DNA of 64,000 nt, taken from the NCBI GenBank assembly GCA_030619715.1, contig JAUXAW010000001.1, forward strand, positions 3,195 to 67,194, given 5' to 3'. Position numbers and translations under genes: made by a program. Below the pieces are notes generated by a model. The model saw nothing but the letters and a program-made list of their open reading frames with translations, was not told where the DNA came from and ran no database searches. Below are positions 44,663 to 56,376 of this stretch, piece after piece. This DNA comes from a candidate division WWE3 bacterium (GTDB lineage Bacteria; Patescibacteriota; WWE3; JAUXAW01). Positions within the stretch are counted from its first letter, which is position 1, and each line of letters starts with the position of its first letter.

Positions 44663-45490
44663 TCATTTCCAGCCCCTCAAATCACGTCCGATTAATTTTT
44701 CCAAACTCTCAATATCTTTTCTAAAAACCTTACGCAACCTTTCCCGTTCAGACCTGCTCATCGGTGGGTAGGTTGCTTCCTTCCGATTGACCATTACATA
44801 GAGTCGTTGGATTCGATTGTAAAGATTAGCCCTTTTCAAAAAATCAATCAGTCCTCCGAGCCCCGCCTTCTCTAGAAATTTCCGCAGTTTAAATAGAACT
44901 ACCAAAAACCTAAACCGCACCTTCGCCGCCGGGTTAACTTTCTTGCCCAAAGATGGAGGAACAAAGCTAGAATCAACCCCTAAAAACTCGTACAAATCAC
45001 GGACGACGGTTCCGGGCCGGCTCTCAATATTATCAAATAAAATAATGTGTATCTTCTCCTGGCTGAATAAATCAAACCACCGAACGAGATACCTGTGATA
45101 AAAACCCTCCTCCAGATACTCGTCAATGCCCGCATCTTTATTAAAATTCAAAGCCCCCCACCAATAATGAGAGTAGGCCCGATCGACTGGGTTTCGCAAA
45201 CAGACAACCAACTTCGCTTCGGGGAAATGTTTCTTAATCCGCTTCGGGGCGTCTTCGTCACAAAGATAAGAGTTGCTGTACTCCCCTCTCACTCGTGGGC
45301 CGCCGCGCTCGGTAAACTGGCTTTCATACCAACTCATCCCTTTCTGGTAATACTTACTGAAAAATTCAATCTCTTTAATGTGAGGGACGCATATCTCCGG
45401 GTGCTCCCGCAAAACTTGGGCAATCCAGCTAGTCCCACTGCGAAAAGCACCGATGCCAATAAAGTCAACTTTGAAGGCTGTCATTTCCAA
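44663..45490 (-). CDS. Sulfotransferase-family protein.
   Basis: The 5'-PSB-like motif IGIGAFRSGTSWIAQVL (PAPS binding). 275 aa. Confidence 0.7.
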   Translation of the reverse strand: MEMTAFKVDFIGIGAFRSGTSWIAQVLREHPEICVPHIKEIEFFSKYYQKGMSWYESQFTERGGPRVRGEYSNSYLCDEDAPKRIKKHFPEAKLVVCLRNPVDRAYSHYWWGALNFNKDAGIDEYLEEGFYHRYLVRWFDLFSQEKIHIILFDNIESRPGTVVRDLYEFLGVDSSFVPPSLGKKVNPAAKVRFRFLVVLFKLRKFLEKAGLGGLIDFLKRANLYNRIQRLYVMVNRKEATYPPMSRSERERLRKVFRKDIESLEKLIGRDLRGWK

Positions 45491-47007
45491 GAACTCAAGT
45501 CCCGCTCAATTAATTTCTCAAGTTTTTCGACATCTTTTCTAAATAACCTCTTTAATCTCAACCGCGTCTCCTCCCGCATCGATGGATAATCAAAGGGTTT
45601 TTTATTCACTTTGCCATACAAATTGGACAAAGAAGGGTTGCTAATCAATTCCCTGACCAAGAAACCCAACCCCAAGGCCCGCAAAGCCTTCATCGGCAAA
45701 TTAACCAAATCGGCCAACAATTTGAATCTTACTTTCTTAGCTCGGTTCACCCTTCTCGTCAAAACTGAAGGCGCAAAGTTCTGACCCACCCCTAAAAAAC
45801 CGTAGACATCTTTCAGAACTTCCTGAGGGCGTTCTTTGATATCATCGAACAGAACAATTTTAATTTTCTCTCTGGGAAACACGTCGTAAAATCTTTTAAG
45901 CTGCTTATAATAGAAACCCCTCTTTATATACTGATCATCTTTTTCCAACTCTCCCTCAAAAGTTTCGGCCAAGTCGCCCGACTCAAAATTAGCTTTTTTC
46001 CACCAGTAAAACGAATAGACCGTATCCTCCGGTCTTCGCAGGCAGGCAATTAATTTAACGTTGGGAAAGTGGCGTTTGATTAGTCCGCAAGACTCGGGAA
46101 AAAACATATAGTGGGTGGTAAACTCGCCTCTAACCGCCCCTTTTGGAGCCTTCTCAAAGAAAGAACTGTACCGTTCCCAGCCTTTTGAATAATTGCTCCT
46201 CTTTTTCTCAAAATCAAAAAAACAGATCTCCTTCCGAGAAGGAAGATATATCTCGGGGTGCTCGCGTAAACACTCGGTCAACCAAGTGGTTCCGCTTCTC
46301 ACTGCTCCAATCCCTATAAAATCCAGGTTTAACAGCTCTCGCCGCCCAATTTTATGCCTTATTTCCTCGATAACAAACGGCATCACCTTTTGTGACAAAT
46401 GAATCGAATCTCGGAAGTATTCTATCTTCGTCAACCCGTCTCGATCTACCAACCTGTCAAAAATCGAAATAGCCTTCAGACTATTTTCTTCTATTAGTTC
46501 ACTAAGACGCCTGTTAAATTGGTGCACAACACGGTTTCTCTCGAGACAGGTGCCATACGTGGGATATTCCCCGCCCTTCACTATAAACCGAGTCGAGGGT
46601 GGAACATGCCAAACCAACACCCCGTAACCCATCTGACTGACCTCTTTAATAACCGAAAAATATCGATCAACACATTCATTCACAACATCCTCTGTGCCCC
46701 TGTTCTGTTTCTCCGCTTGCTTAAGCAAATGCGCCCGGCAGTCTATCTCACCAAAGCAGAATAAAACCCTACTGCCAATGGGTATAGTGTTCAAAACAGC
46801 AAACAGTTTCTCTCTACCTCTCGTCCTCGTTCCACTTCGGGAAAGGTTGTAGGCCAAAACAGGTCCTAGTCGATATGTCCTAAAGAGGGAAATTAGATCC
46901 TCGTGCGGCTCGGGCCACGAGGGTTGCACAAAAGGAACGCCCGAGAACAGATTGGCGTGGCTGTCTCCAATGCAATGAATAACATCCCTTCCGCTTCTCA
47001 TAATCAT
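45481..47007 (-). CDS. SGNH/GDSL hydrolase domain fused to a sulfotransferase domain.
   Basis: N-terminal block I CIGDSHANLF and block V DSIHLS (DxxH). C-terminal IGIGAVRSGTTWLTECL sulfotransferase PAPS motif. Confidence 0.65.
   Translation of the reverse strand: MIMRSGRDVIHCIGDSHANLFSGVPFVQPSWPEPHEDLISLFRTYRLGPVLAYNLSRSGTRTRGREKLFAVLNTIPIGSRVLFCFGEIDCRAHLLKQAEKQNRGTEDVVNECVDRYFSVIKEVSQMGYGVLVWHVPPSTRFIVKGGEYPTYGTCLERNRVVHQFNRRLSELIEENSLKAISIFDRLVDRDGLTKIEYFRDSIHLSQKVMPFVIEEIRHKIGRRELLNLDFIGIGAVRSGTTWLTECLREHPEIYLPSRKEICFFDFEKKRSNYSKGWERYSSFFEKAPKGAVRGEFTTHYMFFPESCGLIKRHFPNVKLIACLRRPEDTVYSFYWWKKANFESGDLAETFEGELEKDDQYIKRGFYYKQLKRFYDVFPREKIKIVLFDDIKERPQEVLKDVYGFLGVGQNFAPSVLTRRVNRAKKVRFKLLADLVNLPMKALRALGLGFLVRELISNPSLSNLYGKVNKKPFDYPSMREETRLRLKRLFRKDVEKLEKLIERDLSSWK

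Positions 47008-49817: not shown

Positions 49818-49821
<4 letters not shown>
48679..49821 (-). CDS. GT4-like glycosyltransferase.
   Basis: C-terminal GT-B Rossmann domain (FLGKIKSDEELEKEIAKSCLAIAPY...GVPVLLTN). Confidence 0.65.
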
Positions 49822-51585
<1,764 letters not shown>

Positions 51586-51598
51586 TTAATAATCGCGG

Positions 51599-52267
51599 CT
51601 AACTATTATTTTTAATGATTGCCGCATTGTAGGACAAAAAGGGCCGCAAAAACGGCAAACCTTCCATAATTTTTTCGTAAATTTTAAATAGCTTAACGAA
51701 TCTTTTGGGATAGTTGTGGCACTCAAAGCACTTAAACTTCGCTTGAGGAAAGATGGCACGAACCAGTTTCTTAAAATAATTCTGTTTGAAGTGCTGGTGG
51801 CCACGCAGCAAAGTCATATAGGGATACAATAATGGGTTGTAGCGGTTCGCTTCGACAATGACAACAGAACCACCTGTTTTACAAACTCGTTTTAACCCTT
51901 CTAAGGCATGTCTGTGTTTCTCGTAACTCTGGTGTTCCTCATCAATATGATGCAAAACATCGTGGGCAAAGACAAAGTCAAACTGGTTTTCGCCAAAAGG
52001 GATCTCTGAGATGCCCGCCTTTTTGAATTCCAAACCCTTAATATTCTTTATTCTTTCGTGTTCAAAGATATCAATGCCGGAGGTTGCGAGGCCATACTCG
52101 TTGATGAAAATCTCCGCATCAAACCCCCCACCGCACCCGACATCCAAAATCTTCCCGCCGCCGGCAAAATCAAAACCAAGTTTATTAAAAATATCATCCC
52201 GATACTGATTTCCTGTGTTAATCATGGTCCAAGAGTATTCTAACATAGACAAGGGATTGACTCTCAT
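51599..52267 (-). CDS. Class I SAM-dependent methyltransferase.
   Basis: KILDVGCGGGFDAEIFINEYG (motif I). Confidence 0.8.
   Translation of the reverse strand: MRVNPLSMLEYSWTMINTGNQYRDDIFNKLGFDFAGGGKILDVGCGGGFDAEIFINEYGLATSGIDIFEHERIKNIKGLEFKKAGISEIPFGENQFDFVFAHDVLHHIDEEHQSYEKHRHALEGLKRVCKTGGSVVIVEANRYNPLLYPYMTLLRGHQHFKQNYFKKLVRAIFPQAKFKCFECHNYPKRFVKLFKIYEKIMEGLPFLRPFLSYNAAIIKNNS
52108..52226. repeat. Direct repeat copy 1 (~119 bp), the 5' end of the methyltransferase gene.
   Basis: About 85% identical to 53031-53148. The two copies flank the nucleotidyltransferase::APS-kinase gene. Confidence 0.8.
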
Positions 52268-52292
52268 GTAGAATAAGAGTTAGTGGGGTAAG

Positions 52293-53030
52293 ATGAAGTA
52301 TTCACTGTTTATCGGCCGGTGGCAACCTTTTCACAAGGGCCACAAAATGCTGATCAATGAAGTTCTCAAGGAGAAAAAGCCTGCTCTCATCGCTATCAGA
52401 GATACTGAAATATCGGAGGAAAATCCGTACACTATCGAGGAACGTAGGAAGATGATCAAAGAAGAGTACGGAGATAGCGTAAAGATAATCACCATCCCGG
52501 ATATAGGGGAGATCTGTTACGGTCGAAGGGTTGGATACAAGATAAGAAGAATTCGCTTGGATAACCAGACAGAGGAGATATCAGGAGCCAAGATAAGAGA
52601 TTCACAAAAAAGGGTTATTTGGCTTACAGGCAATATGGGTGCAGGGAAAACATCTCTTGCTTATCTTCTTAAAGACAGGTTGAATGCGGTTGTTTTGGAT
52701 GGCGATGAGATGCGAGCATCAATCTCGCTGGGAGCAGGTTTTAGCAAAAAGGACAGGAACGAACATAATTTAAGAGTAGCACGGCTGGCAAAAATTCTTC
52801 ACGCCCAGGGGCACAATGTTGTTGTGGCGGTCATCGCACCATTTAGGGAAACGAGAAAAAAGATTAATGATATCTGTGATCCCTATTGGATTTATGTGTG
52901 TGGCGGAGCAACGGGGAAAGATAAGCCCTACGAACCGCCGGAGAATCCCGATGTGGTTATTGATCCTTTGTCTGAAAGTTTAAGCGAAAGCCTGGAGAAA
53001 ATCATTGAGGAGGTGGGGAAAATTACATAG
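52293..53030 (+). CDS. Compact NMNAT/cytidylyltransferase-like nucleotidyltransferase domain fused to adenylylsulfate (APS) kinase. Candidate minimal PAPS synthase.
   Basis: N-domain has FIGRWQPFHKGH (H-x-G-H) and EISGAKIRDS (ISxTxIR-like). C-domain has VIWLTGNMGAGKTSLAYLL (P-loop), LDGDEMR, FSKKDRNEHNLRVARLAKIL and VVAVIAPFRETR, the APS kinase (CysC) motifs. Confidence 0.7.
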   Translation: MKYSLFIGRWQPFHKGHKMLINEVLKEKKPALIAIRDTEISEENPYTIEERRKMIKEEYGDSVKIITIPDIGEICYGRRVGYKIRRIRLDNQTEEISGAKIRDSQKRVIWLTGNMGAGKTSLAYLLKDRLNAVVLDGDEMRASISLGAGFSKKDRNEHNLRVARLAKILHAQGHNVVVAVIAPFRETRKKINDICDPYWIYVCGGATGKDKPYEPPENPDVVIDPLSESLSESLEKIIEEVGKIT

Positions 53031-53190
53031 AAATCTCCGCATCAAACCCCCCGCCGCAACCCACATCCAAAATTTTCCCACCTCTTTGGAAGTCAAAGCC
53101 AAGTTTATTAAAAATATCGTCCCGATACTGGTTTCCCGTGCTAATCATACTCGAAAGCATTTTAGCATAAAAACCCTTCAAAAAAACTTG
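53031..53190 (-). pseudogene. Truncated duplicate of the 5' end of the SAM methyltransferase gene (direct repeat copy 2).
   Basis: Encodes MISTGNQYRDDIFNKLGFDFQRGGKILDVGCGGGFDAEIS, against MINTGNQYRDDIFNKLGFDFAGGGKILDVGCGGGFDAEIF in the intact gene. It then terminates. Confidence 0.7.
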
Positions 53191-53261
53191 AAGTCTCATA
53201 GTAGATATGGTAGTATGTTTGCGCCGGAACCTTAACAACTCAGTTAGACAGGGGGAGACAG

Positions 53262-53996
53262 ATGAGAATAGTCCGCTCAACGGGGTGTTTTAAGAGCCTC
53301 CTGGCGGCCTACCTCGAAATTCCATACTTCCCGTGGAAGAATATGGAAGTGGAATTGTGGCCGCTACGAGGCACAGGCATCCAAAGAATAATCGACGGTG
53401 GGTGCCGGATCGTTAGCATCCACATGCCCTTCGGTGAGTCACTGTGGCGAGGAGGACTTCCTCACATATGGCGCCTCATACGAAGGGATTTCCAGAGGAG
53501 GTCTGTAAAATCCGCCATGCACCTGGCTCTCACAGCGGTCGTCTTAGCTACGGATTTCTGGCATCGCATCTGGAAACCGTACTGGCCGGAACTCGACATC
53601 GAAACCATCGAGCAGGACTTAGCGATGTTGCGACCGAACGCGCTCCTTTTTCACGGTGATCAGCTGTGGGCCGTTTCAGAGGCGACGGAGAGAATCCTGG
53701 CGCTTGCGAGGAGTATGGGCACTGGGATTCACGTCGAGCATTGCTCCATCGGGCCCTCTGAAGAACCTCTCACTATTCACGACACGATCAACATGTGTCG
53801 AAGGGATGGTTGGAAATTGGCCCCAGACCTACACCACAGCCCTGAATTCGAGAGATATTTGCTTGTTCTAAAAGAAGAGGGGCTACTTGGAGAAATCCAG
53901 TGTCGTGGTTTTAAAGAAGCGCGCAGGCTGATGACAGCTTACCCGGGCCTAGAAGGGGCCCCACTGGTTATCGAGCCAAAAGACCTGACCACCTAG
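53262..53996 (+). CDS. Hypothetical protein, GC-rich (about 58%).
   Basis: RBS GGGGGAG before the ATG. 244 aa, no recognisable motif. Compositionally distinct from its neighbours. Confidence 0.5.
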   Translation: MRIVRSTGCFKSLLAAYLEIPYFPWKNMEVELWPLRGTGIQRIIDGGCRIVSIHMPFGESLWRGGLPHIWRLIRRDFQRRSVKSAMHLALTAVVLATDFWHRIWKPYWPELDIETIEQDLAMLRPNALLFHGDQLWAVSEATERILALARSMGTGIHVEHCSIGPSEEPLTIHDTINMCRRDGWKLAPDLHHSPEFERYLLVLKEEGLLGEIQCRGFKEARRLMTAYPGLEGAPLVIEPKDLTT

Positions 53997-54007
53997 GATG
54001 GGGGCAC

Positions 54008-54766
54008 TCAAAATCGCAGTTCCGGCTTGAGTGCCCTCAAATTCATCATATTATTCTTAACCTCAACCACAATTTCTTCCAAAATCTCCTCCCAAGAATC
54101 TTCAAGGAGGCGGGCACAATCTTCAAAAACCCTTTTTGCTTTCTCCACATTCACGTTGTCCCCCTGCGGGAGACCTGCGGCCATATTCGCCCAAATTTCG
54201 ACCAGACCCTGAATCGAAAGAAACCTTTCGGGAGTATAGGATCTCAAGAGAAACAAAATATCCTGCGAAACATCCGCAATCTCCTTGTCGAAGCACTCGG
54301 CCAAAAGAGACGCTGCTTCGGAAACATCAATCTGGGAAATCTTTTTTGCTAAATCTTCAACAAAATTTCGCCGGTGCCGAAGAAGTTGGACATCAACTCC
54401 CCACCAAAGAAAGTTGTGAAATCGAGCCCGCGAAGCTATCTCCAAGGAAATCTCCGAGGCCTCAGCGATTCGTTTCCCATACTCTTCTCTCTTACTTTCA
54501 AACCGCTCCGCAATGCTCCGACTAAACCCATCTGCCCCAAACTCGGCGCTGTGGCAAAGCATACCCAAAGCCAAATCTCGCCTCCCCGGAGAGTATTTAT
54601 CCAAGAAATCCAGAAGTTTCTTTCCGCCCTCATGGATCTCCTCAAACTCAAACACAGAGCCGGGAACGAAGGGAACAATATCCGGATAATAGGAGCCCAA
54701 AACCAAATCCCCCGTTAACCTTCCGGCAACCCTTTTAGCGACGTAGGGATGACCGATGACATTCAT
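54008..54766 (-). CDS. Hypothetical protein. The internal Met at 54766 (MNVIGHPYVAKR...) is the likely start.
   Basis: About 250 aa. No recognisable domain. Confidence 0.45.
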   Translation of the reverse strand: MNVIGHPYVAKRVAGRLTGDLVLGSYYPDIVPFVPGSVFEFEEIHEGGKKLLDFLDKYSPGRRDLALGMLCHSAEFGADGFSRSIAERFESKREEYGKRIAEASEISLEIASRARFHNFLWWGVDVQLLRHRRNFVEDLAKKISQIDVSEAASLLAECFDKEIADVSQDILFLLRSYTPERFLSIQGLVEIWANMAAGLPQGDNVNVEKAKRVFEDCARLLEDSWEEILEEIVVEVKNNMMNLRALKPELRF

Positions 54767-54810
54767 TGGAAGTATTTTAACACAGACAGAAGAGGCGATT
54801 CTCGTGTAAA

Positions 54811-56376
54811 ATGGTAACAATGAAAGAGTGGTTCAGACAAAATTGGAAGGCCCTCGCTTTTCTCGCCTTTCTGGTTTTTGTGGCCTACATCAACTCTCTA
54901 AATAACGCCTTTGTGGCTGACGATATTCCCGCGATCCTTAACAAAGCAGATATTACCGAAATAAGCTACGTCTTCGCCACCCCTCTTGTCTTGGCAAGGA
55001 CTTTCCTGAACTTCATCATCGCTAACATCTTCGGCCGCTCACCACCCGCTTTCCGCGCCGTCAACATCCTTTTTCATCTCGGCAATGTTTGGCTGCTTTA
55101 TTTCCTCCTTCACATCTTAGCCAACCGCAAAACCGCTCTCTTCGCCGCCGCCATCCTGGCCACCCATCCCCTTATGACCGAGTCAGTTACCTGGGTTGCC
55201 GGTGGTCTATACGCACAGTACAGCTTCTTCCTTCTTCTGGCGTTAGCGCTATATGTTCTAAACGATGTGAACGAAAACAAAAAAGTTTATTGGTCCGCAC
55301 TCGGGAGCTTCGCCGTCGGTCTTCTCACCTCCGAAAAGGCAATGGCTTTCCCTCTTATCCTTTTGGCGTTGGAATTCGCCTACCGGGGTTTGCGAAAAAA
55401 TTGGAGGCGCTTGATTCCCTTCTTTGCTCTTGGGGGGATCTGGGCACTAATATTTATCGGAAAAATTGGCGAGAGAGCCGCTAACCTCCAAACGATGTAT
55501 TATCAAGCCCCCCAAGCAACGGAGTCCCTAGCTCAGATCCCAATCGCCATTACCTCCTACTTAAAATTAGTCTTCTGGCCGAAGGGGCTTACTCTCTACC
55601 ACTCGGAGATGAGCTTCTCTGCCGTTGAGTTCTACCTGCGGCTGGCCGCCCTAATTATTTTCTTGGGACTGATGGCTTACGCATACAGGAAAAGCAAACC
55701 GACATTTTTTTGGTTATCTTTCTTCATCATCGCTCTTTCACCAACACTGGTCCCGTTTGGTCTTTCTTGGATTGTCGCCGAGCGCTACGTCTACCTAGGC
55801 ACAATTGGAATTCTTGTGGTCGTAGCGATGGGAATCCAAAAGATTGGAGAAAAACTCGGCAACCCCAATATTTCTTACGCAATTATGGTTCCAGTCGTTT
55901 TAGCGCTGACGGCAAGAACGATTGCTAGAAACACCGACTGGAAAAACCAAGACACGCTTTGGCTAGCGGCGGCGAAGACATCGCCTTCAAGCCCGCAGAA
56001 CCATAATAATCTCGGAGATCTGTACGGCCGACGGGGGGATTTGGAAAGGTCGGCAGAGGAGTTTAAAAAAGCGATCGAGCTCAAACCGGGCTACGCCGAC
56101 GCTCACCATAACCTGGCCATTGTTTATCAGCGAATGGGAAGAGTTGACGAAGCGATTGTAAACTATCAAAAGGCAGCCGAAATTAACCCCCTGCTCTGGC
56201 AACCCTGCCAAAATTTGGCCGCTATTTACTTTGAGCAAGAAGAGTTCGAGCTAGCAAAAGAATATATGGAAAAAGCGGTTGAAGCTAACCCCGAAAACGC
56301 CAACCTCCGCCGCAGCCTAGAAATCATTTATCAAGAACTCGTCCAAAAAGAGAATTCAAAACGCGATCAAGAGTAG
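54811..56376 (+). CDS. TMTC/DUF1736-like GT-C membrane glycosyltransferase with C-terminal TPR repeats.
   Basis: N-terminal polytopic region with YINSLNNAFVADDIPAI (N-x-F-x-x-DD motif). Three or four C-terminal TPRs (NLGDLYGRRGDLERSAEEFKKAIELKP...). Confidence 0.6.
   Translation: MVTMKEWFRQNWKALAFLAFLVFVAYINSLNNAFVADDIPAILNKADITEISYVFATPLVLARTFLNFIIANIFGRSPPAFRAVNILFHLGNVWLLYFLLHILANRKTALFAAAILATHPLMTESVTWVAGGLYAQYSFFLLLALALYVLNDVNENKKVYWSALGSFAVGLLTSEKAMAFPLILLALEFAYRGLRKNWRRLIPFFALGGIWALIFIGKIGERAANLQTMYYQAPQATESLAQIPIAITSYLKLVFWPKGLTLYHSEMSFSAVEFYLRLAALIIFLGLMAYAYRKSKPTFFWLSFFIIALSPTLVPFGLSWIVAERYVYLGTIGILVVVAMGIQKIGEKLGNPNISYAIMVPVVLALTARTIARNTDWKNQDTLWLAAAKTSPSSPQNHNNLGDLYGRRGDLERSAEEFKKAIELKPGYADAHHNLAIVYQRMGRVDEAIVNYQKAAEINPLLWQPCQNLAAIYFEQEEFELAKEYMEKAVEANPENANLRRSLEIIYQELVQKENSKRDQE

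What the first reader, a model, noticed from the sequence alone, without database searches (positions are those of the whole stretch)
52108..53190. The nucleotidyltransferase::APS-kinase gene is bracketed by a ~120 bp direct repeat created by duplication of the methyltransferase 5' end
Sequence 52108-52226 (inside the intact SAM-MT gene) and 53031-53148 are ~85% identical. The downstream copy encodes a truncated MT N-terminus (MISTGNQYRDDIFNKLGFDF..GGKILDVGCGGGFDAEI) and then stops, a gene fragment. The APS-kinase fusion therefore sits between a gene and a decayed copy of that gene's start. This is the signature of an insertion or duplication-mediated rearrangement that brought in the plus-strand gene. 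It marks the fusion as a relatively recent acquisition in the glycan locus.
Basis: seen in the sequence. Interest (0 to 1): 0.65.

Follow-up and report, generated by a model that had tools for sequence, protein, structure and literature searches.

The report
Leftover methyltransferase stump beside sulfate-activation gene
The repeat is real, but the second copy is the freshly cut-off start of a second, once-working methyltransferase gene, an ordinary recombination scar in a highly reshuffled sugar-coat gene cluster, not a decayed duplicate.

Summary
Observation confirmed. Window 52108-52232 and 53031-53155 are 84% identical with no gaps. The match extends to 140 nt with gaps and is the strongest self-match in the 64 kb window (E 7.6e-34). 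The downstream copy encodes codons 1-39 of the methyltransferase (MT) and ends in a stop created at the junction.

Interpretation partly supported.
- Of the 17 differences in the 118 coding nt, 13 fall at third codon positions. dS is 0.81, dN 0.056 and omega 0.07, the same as between MT orthologues. Duplication in place followed by neutral decay predicts about 29 non-synonymous differences; 5 are seen (P about 5e-8). The stump therefore comes from a second, diverged and functional MT that was truncated recently.
- Syntenic relatives lack the fusion gene at this site. L010 has GT2-MT<-IG->PMT/TPR. L028, L031, L034 and L035 have GT2<-IG-b->ORF244-ORF270<-IG->PMT/TPR, and L033 has the same without ORF270.
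- The fusion ORF is full length, and the junction lies at its stop codon. A copy of the PMT/TPR promoter sits immediately upstream of it.

Most likely, a block carrying MT, promoter and fusion gene was joined by illegitimate recombination to codon 40 of a resident MT allele. The main rival is old paralogues followed by a recent deletion. This is a known kind of scar in mosaic polysaccharide loci, so interest is low to moderate.

The parts
50638..51582 (-). SDR epimerase/reductase resembling GDP-L-fucose synthase. It is absent at this position from all syntenic relatives and is part of the window-specific block.
   Evidence: Pfam Epimerase E 3e-56. NCBIfam GDPFucSynFcl scores 292 bits, below the cutoff of 500. 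L010 homology jumps from 51609 to 50624, and Type A homology jumps from 50657 to 53154/53158.
51599..52225 (-). Intact class I SAM-dependent methyltransferase (MT), 208 aa counted from MINTGNQ.
   Evidence: Pfam Methyltransf_11/23/31/25. 229 homologues; the closest is P0122 (86% aa) in L010.
52108..52247 (.). Repeat copy 1: MT codons 1-39, the first two bases of codon 40, and 22 nt upstream of the ATG.
52226..52274 (.). IG-a, a copy of the divergent MT<->PMT/TPR promoter region. It has TGTTAGAAT 11 nt before the MT ATG on the minus strand, and TAGACA-17-TAGAAT on the plus strand ending at 52274.
   Evidence: 35/44 aligned nt identical to the L010 intergenic region and 36/42 to IG-c; 0/500 shuffles reach the score in either case. 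Best promoter-like site in the scan, 10/12..
52275..53030 (+). Fusion-gene cassette: an 18-nt leader plus the ORF 52293-53030 (245 aa). The protein joins an NMNAT-like HxGH nucleotidyltransferase domain to an APS-kinase-like domain. Junction J1 lies at 52274/52275.
   Evidence: Homology to L010 and IG-c ends after the -10 box. Pfam, NCBIfam and PDB domain matches. The C-terminus ...EVGKIT ends where many of the 30 closest homologues end. 882 homologues of 243-280 aa.
53023..53148 (-). MT' stump: a 41-aa ORF (MISTGNQ...FDAEISM*). Codons 1-39 are MT-like. Junction J2 lies at 53030/53031, within about 2 nt of the fusion gene's TAG stop.
53031..53169 (.). Repeat copy 2.
53149..53261 (.). IG-b, the native divergent promoter region of ORF244. 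On the minus strand TGCTAAAAT lies 10 nt before the MT' ATG. On the plus strand there is TTGAAG-17-TAGTAT followed by a conserved leader.
   Evidence: 77-83% identical over its whole length to the GT2<->ORF244 intergenic region of L028 and L034, 0/500 shuffles. Beyond the first ~22 nt it is not significantly similar to IG-a or IG-c.
53262..53996 (+). ORF244, a protein of unknown function. Its family has only 5 clusters, all found in this locus type.
54008..54766 (-). ORF270 (252 aa from ATG 54766), unknown function. It is the conserved convergent partner of ORF244.
54767..54819 (.). IG-c, the second copy of the MT<->PMT/TPR promoter region. Together with IG-a it brackets 52275-54766.
   Evidence: 45/50 aligned nt identical to the L010 intergenic region and 36/42 to IG-a. 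CAGACA-18-TAAAAT promoter-like site.
54820..56376 (+). PMT_2/TPR membrane glycosyltransferase-like gene. It is the conserved right-hand anchor of the locus in all relatives.

Best explanation
The downstream repeat copy (MT', 53031-53148) is the 5' stump of a second methyltransferase gene. That gene was intact and under purifying selection until recently. It is a diverged allele or homologue of the neighbouring MT, not an in-place copy of it.

The stump is fused by an illegitimate (non-homologous) junction, at 53030/53031, to the stop codon of a complete nucleotidyltransferase/APS-kinase gene.

The most likely history has three steps.
1. The resident arrangement was GT2-MT'<-IG-b->ORF244-ORF270<-IG-c->PMT/TPR.
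2. A block from a diverged relative arrived. It carried [GDP-fucose-synthase-like epimerase]-MT<-PMT-type promoter->fusion gene.
3. The block recombined in with a homologous crossover on the left and an illegitimate join on the right, as in homology-facilitated illegitimate recombination. This displaced codons 41-208 of the resident MT and left its first 40 codons and its promoter as a scar.

Shown here: the repeat, the truncation, the coding-type divergence, the absence of the fusion gene at this site in relatives, the completeness of the fusion ORF, and the positions of the junctions.
Inferred: the direction of the event (import versus deletion), the donor, and the mechanism.
For: 1. The repeat is real and highly significant.
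2. Of 17 differences, 13 are at codon position 3 (binomial P 3.4e-4). There are 11 synonymous and 3 non-synonymous codon changes. dS is 0.81, dN 0.056 and omega 0.07, equal to omega 0.07 for full-length MT against its L010 orthologue. A neutral-stump model expects about 29 non-synonymous differences and 5 are observed (P 4.6e-8).
3. The stump has no frameshift or internal stop. At most about one non-synonymous change is specific to its lineage (N3S). Its 'QR' at residues 21-22 is typical of the family, while 'AG' is shared by MT and L010's MT.
4. IG-a is orthologous to the MT<->PMT/TPR intergenic region of L010. IG-b is orthologous over its full length to the GT2<->ORF244 intergenic region of L028, L031, L033 and L034. 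The two MT starts therefore sit on promoter regions with different histories.
5. Relatives lack the fusion gene here. L010 has GT2-MT<-IG->PMT/TPR. L028, L031, L034 and L035 have GT2<-IG-b->ORF244-ORF270<-IG->PMT/TPR, and L033 has the same without ORF270.
6. The fusion ORF ends where its homologues end, so the junction did not truncate it. Its closest homologues (up to 77% aa) lie in other glycan-locus contexts, often beside sulfotransferases, so the gene does move between loci.
7. The same locus shows other gene-sized insertions or deletions and another remnant: the last ~10 codons of ORF270 in L033, a mosaic GT2_278, and an epimerase found only in the window.
8. An independent assembly contig confirms the arrangement.
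Against: - No donor-type arrangement (MT<-IG->fusion) was found in any retrieved locus: 17 genome loci, 7 metagenome loci and 9 look-ups of fusion or MT homologues.
- No resident-type arrangement (full MT'<-IG-b->ORF244) was found either.
- All relatives are distant (dS about 0.8-1.6), so the order of events cannot be determined.
- There is no clear compositional break. GC3 of epimerase, MT and fusion gene (0.46-0.48) is only slightly below that of the flanking genes (0.48-0.61).
- The left-hand homologous crossover cannot be located.
- Microhomology at the junction cannot be assessed without the donor sequence.
- dS for the repeat rests on only about 24 synonymous sites.
Confidence: 0.5

Rival explanations
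1. Old paralogues plus a recent deletion. The lineage long carried two intact MT genes: MT1<-IG-a->fusion, lying tail-to-tail with MT2<-IG-b->ORF244. A recent deletion of roughly 0.5 kb removed MT2 codons 41-208 together with the spacer, ending at the fusion gene's stop codon. Under this view the fusion gene is not a recent arrival, and L010 and the Type A relatives are deletion derivatives. For example, recombination between the IG-a and IG-c repeats would produce the L010 arrangement.
For: It fits the coding-type divergence and the undecayed stump equally well. The IG-a/IG-c direct repeat (36/42 aligned nt) offers a simple deletion route to the L010 arrangement. Gene-sized deletions that leave small remnants do occur in this locus, as with ORF270 in L033. 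The window also has two sulfotransferase genes about 6 kb away (44663-47007) that would need the fusion gene's product, so the gene is functionally integrated.
Against: No relative has two MT genes or the fusion gene at this site. It needs independent, precise losses in both the Type A and Type B lineages. Keeping two near-identical MT paralogues (92% aa over the N-terminus) under selection for dS of about 0.8 has no evident rationale.
Confidence: 0.3
2. Duplication in place, followed by replacement of one copy. Insertion of the fusion gene duplicated about 140 bp of MT 5' end plus upstream sequence. Later, homologous recombination (allelic replacement or gene conversion) swapped the intact MT for a diverged functional allele.
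For: It would also give synonymous-biased differences. Recombination in this locus is evidently frequent.
Against: It needs two events where one is enough. Beyond the first ~22 nt, IG-a and IG-b are not homologous; they are orthologous to two different intergenic regions of relatives. A simple local duplication of MT 5' end plus promoter therefore does not reproduce the structure.
Confidence: 0.08
3. One reading: the MT 5' end was duplicated in place during insertion, and the non-functional copy has since decayed to about 85% identity.
For: The direct-repeat geometry around a single gene.
Against: 13 of 17 differences are at third codon positions (P 3.4e-4). omega is 0.07. About 29 non-synonymous differences are expected and 5 are observed (P 4.6e-8). 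There are no indels or stops in 39 codons. MT groups with L010's MT rather than with MT'.
Confidence: 0.03
4. Assembly or strain-mixture chimera: two strains' versions of the locus were joined by the assembler at the shared MT sequence.
For: This is a metagenome-derived sequence, and the copies share exact runs of 22 and 20 nt.
Against: A join at shared k-mers would produce a hybrid MT, not a junction between the fusion gene's stop codon and MT codon 40. An independently built Logan contig is 100% identical across 3.7 kb and includes both copies and both junctions.
Confidence: 0.04

Closest known systems
Gene remnants at recombination junctions in mosaic polysaccharide gene clusters, for example the wzy remnants and D1/E recombinant clusters of Salmonella O-antigen loci (PMC3715488; also reviewed for E. 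coli in PMC7685785)
   Same: A truncated, non-functional piece of a biosynthesis gene sits between intact genes of a surface-glycan locus. Relatives differ by gene-sized blocks with breakpoints at gene boundaries. The remnant records an earlier gene arrangement.
   Different: The host is apparently a Patescibacteria/CPR-type organism. That is inferred from the names of the homologues' source genomes. No IS or H-repeat element lies at the junction. The remnant is a 5' stump that keeps its own promoter and start codon.
Displacement of a resident gene by an incoming homologous module through homology-facilitated illegitimate recombination, which leaves orphaned fragments. This has been proposed for T6SS effector/immunity arrays and for Rhs/CDI loci (PMC5361080). 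HFIR itself has been shown experimentally in Acinetobacter, S. pneumoniae, P. stutzeri and E. coli (PMC3240628 and references in PMC5361080).
   Same: A diverged homologue together with new cargo is found next to a truncated piece of the resident homologue. One junction is non-homologous. The resident remnant still looks like coding sequence.
   Different: In those systems the orphaned pieces are usually 3' ends or immunity genes; here it is a 5' end. The homologous anchor and the donor were not identified. The mechanism is inferred and was not tested.
Transposon or IS target-site duplication
   Same: Direct repeats flank a single inserted gene.
   Different: The repeats are about 125-140 nt long and only 84% identical, with coding-type divergence. 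There is no transposase and there are no terminal inverted repeats. This is not a target-site duplication.

Membership tests
Gene remnant / recombination scar in a mosaic polysaccharide gene cluster | Lies inside a surface-glycan biosynthesis locus | tested here: met
   Glycosyltransferases, flippases, sulfotransferases, epimerases and methyltransferases run from 37.8 to 58.3 kb.
Gene remnant / recombination scar in a mosaic polysaccharide gene cluster | The fragment is a truncated homologue of a complete biosynthesis gene | tested here: met
   39 of 208 codons are present, 92% aa identity to MT, tblastn E 2e-19, and the stop is created at the junction.
Gene remnant / recombination scar in a mosaic polysaccharide gene cluster | Relatives show alternative gene content with breakpoints at or near the fragment | tested here: met
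   Type A homology to the window jumps from 50657 to 53154/53158. Type B homology jumps from 52274 to 54773.
Gene remnant / recombination scar in a mosaic polysaccharide gene cluster | Blocks on the two sides have different evolutionary origins (different divergence or composition) | tested here: inconclusive
   dS to relatives is 0.8-1.6 everywhere and close to saturation. GC3 differs only slightly. The promoter regions IG-a and IG-b do have different orthologues.
Homology-facilitated illegitimate recombination product | One non-homologous junction between foreign cargo and a resident sequence | tested here: met
   The junction at 53030/53031 joins the fusion gene's stop codon to MT' codon 40. 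Neither flank is homologous to the other there.
Homology-facilitated illegitimate recombination product | A homologous anchor crossover on the other side | tested here: inconclusive
   The left flank (GT2_278, GT1_380) is shared with relatives, but no crossover point can be located.
Homology-facilitated illegitimate recombination product | Microhomology of a few nt between donor and recipient at the illegitimate join | not testable with these tools
   The donor sequence downstream of the fusion gene is unknown. The homologues' downstream sequences are unrelated.
Tandem duplication followed by pseudogene decay | The non-functional copy accumulates changes without regard to codon position, plus indels and stops | tested here: not met
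   13 of 17 differences at position 3, omega 0.07, no indels or stops, neutral model P 4.6e-8.
Transposon/IS insertion with target-site duplication | Short identical direct repeats, terminal inverted repeats, and a transposase | tested here: not met
   The repeats are 125-140 nt at 84% identity. Between them lies only the fusion ORF, with no transposase domain. The inverted repeats found are at chance level.
Integron-type gene cassette | An attC-like structured recombination site at the cassette end and a nearby integrase | tested here: not met
   The only inverted repeat spanning the cassette's 3' end (53010-53024 / 53070-53084) folds no better than shuffled sequence: z -0.78 on the plus strand and +0.38 on the minus strand. 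None of the ORFs of at least 150 aa between 37.8 and 64 kb that were scanned against Pfam has an integrase domain.

The most novel reading that the evidence does not exclude
The three divergent gene pairs here are MT<->fusion, MT'<->ORF244 and ORF270<->PMT/TPR. Each pair is organised around a short promoter module whose extended -10 box lies 7-11 nt from the minus-strand ATG, which would give leaderless starts. Cassette exchange in these CPR glycan loci might be anchored on such portable promoter modules. The MT' stump also keeps its promoter and start codon and has no terminator, so it might now serve as an antisense promoter that damps the convergent sulfate-activation gene. In that case the scar would be a co-opted regulatory element.
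Probability: 0.08. Interest if true: 0.5.

Novelty: new member of a known kind. Interest (0 to 1): 0.25.

Why it matters
The finding gives a dated snapshot of how a surface-glycan locus in an uncultivated, probably CPR/Patescibacteria bacterium is rebuilt. A complete gene is spliced in at its stop codon behind a copy of the PMT/TPR promoter, and the start of a displaced methyltransferase is left behind. The candidate product of that gene is PAPS for the two sulfotransferases in the same locus.

It also has practical uses. The 41-aa ORF should not be annotated as a gene. The repeat should not be read as a mobile-element footprint. The substitution-pattern test used here (position-3 bias and omega on the stump) separates 'decayed duplicate' from 'freshly truncated diverged allele'.

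It does not reveal a new mechanism. Remnants of this kind are well known in O-antigen and capsule loci.

Tried and rejected
1. Low-complexity or chance repeat: rejected (E 7.6e-34; the best self-hit in the window).
2. Target-site duplication, IS or integron cassette: rejected. There is no transposase or integrase, and the inverted repeat 53010-53024/53070-53084 folds no better than shuffled sequence.
3. ORF244 as a conserved partner of the fusion gene, tested because a 254-aa gene follows the fusion gene in the Woesebacteria contigs: rejected, no similarity.
4. IG-b as a third copy of the MT<->PMT/TPR intergenic region. I first thought it kept a remnant of the PMT/TPR start codon. This is not supported: global alignment scores are at chance level (277/500, 101/500 and 49/500 shuffles reach them). 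Only the first ~22 nt next to the ATG resemble IG-a.
5. A search for a full-length MT with an MT'-type N-terminus among 120 MT homologues found none. The closest are the window's own MT and L010's MT.
6. A search for a donor arrangement (MT next to the fusion gene) found none. It covered 17 GTDB genome loci, 7 JGI metagenome loci and the contexts of five fusion homologues.
7. dS and GC3 comparisons, intended to show that the left and right blocks have different origins: uninformative.
8. Rfam scan of 50-56 kb: nothing.
9. The fusion gene on viral contigs: homologues exist in IMG/VR, up to 64% identity over the N-terminal domain, but with no MT linkage, so they do not help with this junction.
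Full report
**1. The observation**

The repeat exists at the stated coordinates. The repeat finder reports 52108-52232 vs 53031-53155: 125 nt, 84% identity, no gaps, spacing 923 nt. Local alignment and a self-BLAST of the window extend it to 52108-52247 vs 53031-53169 (140 nt, 82.9%, one gap, E 7.6e-34). This is by far the strongest internal repeat in the 64 kb.

On the minus strand, both copies encode the N-terminus of a class I SAM-dependent methyltransferase (MT).
- The intact gene runs from 52225 to 51599. It is 208 aa from MINTGNQ and matches Pfam Methyltransf_11/23/31/25.
- The second copy starts at ATG 53148 and has 39 MT-like codons. It then reads Ser-Met-stop from the antisense of the neighbouring gene's 3' end.

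The plus-strand gene between the copies (52293-53030, 245 aa) has two domains. The N-terminal domain is an archaeal-NMNAT-like HxGH nucleotidyltransferase. The C-terminal domain is APS-kinase-like, and both score below NCBIfam's equivalog cutoffs.

An independently assembled Logan contig (L001, SRR14872668) is 100% identical over window 50949-54684. The arrangement is therefore not peculiar to one assembly.

**2. The copies did not diverge by decay**

Over the 118 shared coding nucleotides there are 17 differences, and 13 of them are at third codon positions (binomial P 3.4e-4). Eleven codons differ synonymously and three non-synonymously.

Nei-Gojobori estimates are dS 0.81, dN 0.056 and omega 0.07. 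Full-length MT against its orthologue in relative L010 gives the same omega, 0.07.

Suppose the stump had been non-functional since an in-place duplication. About 29 non-synonymous differences would then be expected; 5 are observed (Poisson P 4.6e-8). The stump has no indel or internal stop.

At the protein level, the intact MT and L010's MT share 'FAGGGK'. The stump has 'FQRGGK', which resembles the rest of the family (ERGK, EQGK, QRGK). The stump is therefore not the sister of the neighbouring MT.

Conclusion: MT' is a piece of a second MT gene that evolved as a working gene for nearly all of its divergence from MT. It was truncated only recently.

**3. What relatives look like**

The closest MT (P0122, 86% aa) lies on L010, which is syntenic with the window at about 78-82% nt. 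There the order is GT2_278(-), MT(-), a 56-nt intergenic region, PMT/TPR(+), GT2_267(-). L010 has no epimerase, fusion gene, ORF244 or ORF270.

ORF244 belongs to a very small family: 5 clusters among 5.8 billion proteins. Each of its contigs that reaches far enough to show the flanking genes has one arrangement. It is GT2_278(-) <- IG-b -> ORF244(+), ORF270(-) <- IG -> PMT/TPR(+), seen in L028, L031, L034 and L035. L033 has the same arrangement without ORF270.

In these relatives, homology to the window jumps from 50657 to 53154/53158. The GT2_278 start codon sits exactly where the MT' start codon sits in the window.

The window-specific material is therefore:
- relative to Type A: [epimerase-MT-IG-a-fusion-MT'];
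- relative to L010: [epimerase] and [fusion-MT'-IG-b-ORF244-ORF270].

No retrieved locus has the fusion gene next to an MT. The loci examined were 17 from GTDB genomes, 7 from JGI metagenomes, and the contexts of fusion homologues P0002, P0004, P0006, P0013 and P0018.

**4. Junctions and promoters**

*IG-a.* IG-a (52226-52274) is orthologous to the L010 intergenic region (35/44 aligned nt) and is paralogous to IG-c (54767-54819; 36/42 aligned nt). None of 500 shuffles reach either score. The similarity runs through a promoter-like site, TAGACA-17-TAGAAT, which ends at 52274. It stops there. So a copy of the PMT/TPR promoter sits immediately upstream of the fusion gene. I call this junction J1 (52274/52275).

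*IG-b.* IG-b (53149-53261) is orthologous along its whole length to the GT2<->ORF244 region of the Type A relatives (77-83%). Beyond the first ~22 nt it is not significantly similar to IG-a or IG-c.

*J2.* The fusion ORF ends (...EVGKIT) where many of its 30 closest homologues end. The family has 882 members of 243-280 aa. J2 (53030/53031) therefore lies within about 2 nt of an essentially native stop codon.

*Minus-strand starts.* MT, MT' and ORF270 each have a TGnTA(A/G)AAT box 7-11 nt upstream of their ATG. The stump thus keeps a plausible promoter and start codon. There is no terminator-like structure at J2.

**5. Interpretation**

The structure is a chimera of two MT-bearing units with different promoter partners: [..MT<-IG-a->fusion] and [MT'<-IG-b->ORF244..]. 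They are joined tail-to-middle at J2.

*Best reading.* The simplest single event is import of a block carrying MT, the PMT-type promoter and the fusion gene, possibly with the epimerase, from a diverged relative. A homologous crossover on the left and an illegitimate join on the right would displace codons 41-208 of the resident MT. I give this 0.5. The broader claim is that MT' is a recently truncated, formerly functional second MT rather than a decayed in-place duplicate. I put that at about 0.85-0.9.

*Main rival (0.3).* Two MT paralogues were present long ago and a recent deletion ended at the fusion gene's stop codon. Under this reading the fusion gene need not be recent, and the IG-a/IG-c repeat offers a route to the L010 arrangement by deletion. 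All available relatives are at dS of about 0.8-1.6 and composition is uninformative. The two readings therefore cannot be separated with the data reachable here.

**6. Functional context**

The fusion gene is not an oddity in this locus. The window carries two sulfotransferase genes (44663-45490 and 45481-47007). Close fusion homologues sit directly beside sulfotransferases in other contigs: three in L044 and one in L008.

A role in supplying activated sulfate for glycan sulfation is a reasonable inference. It was not tested here.

**7. Comparison with known systems**

This is the kind of gene remnant long described at recombination junctions in O-antigen and capsule loci. Examples are the wzy remnants and the D1/E recombinant cluster in Salmonella (PMC3715488).

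It also resembles the 'displacement with orphaned fragment' pattern attributed to homology-facilitated illegitimate recombination in T6SS, Rhs and CDI loci (PMC5361080; HFIR itself in PMC3240628).

It is not a target-site duplication, an IS footprint or an integron cassette. The membership table gives the tests.

The same locus contains other scars, which shows this is routine turnover. L033 keeps the last ~10 codons of a deleted ORF270, and GT2_278 is itself mosaic.

**8. Verdict**

- Observation: confirmed.
- Interpretation: partly supported. A rearrangement junction is present and the fusion gene is absent from relatives at this site. However, the repeat was not made by duplication and decay, and recency is shown only for the truncation.
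- Novelty: a new instance of a known phenomenon, in an under-studied lineage.
- Interest: 0.25.

Noticed in passing
window 52226-52274 and 54767-54819: A second, shorter direct repeat: two copies of the MT<->PMT/TPR divergent promoter region (36/42 aligned nt identical; each 80-90% identical to the single copy in L010). Together they bracket fusion-MT'-IG-b-ORF244-ORF270. Recombination between them would reproduce the L010 arrangement.
   Followed up: yes
window 52237-52245, 53159-53167, 54774-54782 (minus strand); also 9845 (+), 26712 (-), 63983 (-): Extended -10-like TGnTA(A/G)AAT boxes lie 7-11 nt upstream of start codons, suggesting leaderless or near-leaderless mRNAs. The truncated MT' keeps such a box and its ATG, so it may still be transcribed antisense into the fusion gene.
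   Followed up: partly
window 53999-54039; L033 2575-2620: A hairpin between the convergent ORF244 and ORF270 (13-nt arms) is conserved in L033 with compensatory changes (CACTCAA/TTGAGTG becomes CACCCAA/TTGGGTG). It is probably a bidirectional terminator. No equivalent exists at the fusion|MT' junction.
   Followed up: partly
L033 2560-2850: Relative L033 has lost ORF270 but keeps its last ~10 codons (LEAPKPELRF). This is another gene remnant in the same locus type.
   Followed up: yes
window 52293-53030; L044 1218-5033; L008 2730-8741; L047-L059: The NMNAT-like nucleotidyltransferase/APS-kinase fusion is a large family (882 hits) found in CPR glycan loci, often next to sulfotransferases. On IMG/VR 'viral' contigs the two domains occur as separate adjacent ORFs in either order, or the N-terminal domain occurs alone. 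This may be a minimal two-step sulfate-activation enzyme. It scores below NCBIfam's APS-kinase cutoffs.
   Followed up: partly
window 53262-53996 and 54008-54766: ORF244 (5 clusters in 5.8 billion proteins; GC 54% against 46% for the window) and ORF270 form a conserved convergent pair. Neither has a Pfam or NCBIfam match. In the contigs that extend far enough to show it, the pair (or ORF244 alone in L033) lies just upstream of the PMT/TPR gene. Function unknown.
   Followed up: partly
window 50638-50657 and 49818-50654; L033/L034: The last 5 sense codons and the stop codon of the window-specific epimerase overlap the start of GT2_278. GT2_278 is itself mosaic: L033 and L034 share only its first ~150 nt (75-78% nt) and are 45% identical in protein overall.
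   Followed up: partly
window 44663-47007: Two tandem sulfotransferase genes (275 aa and 508 aa) lie in the same minus-strand glycan operon, about 6 kb from the fusion gene.
   Followed up: partly
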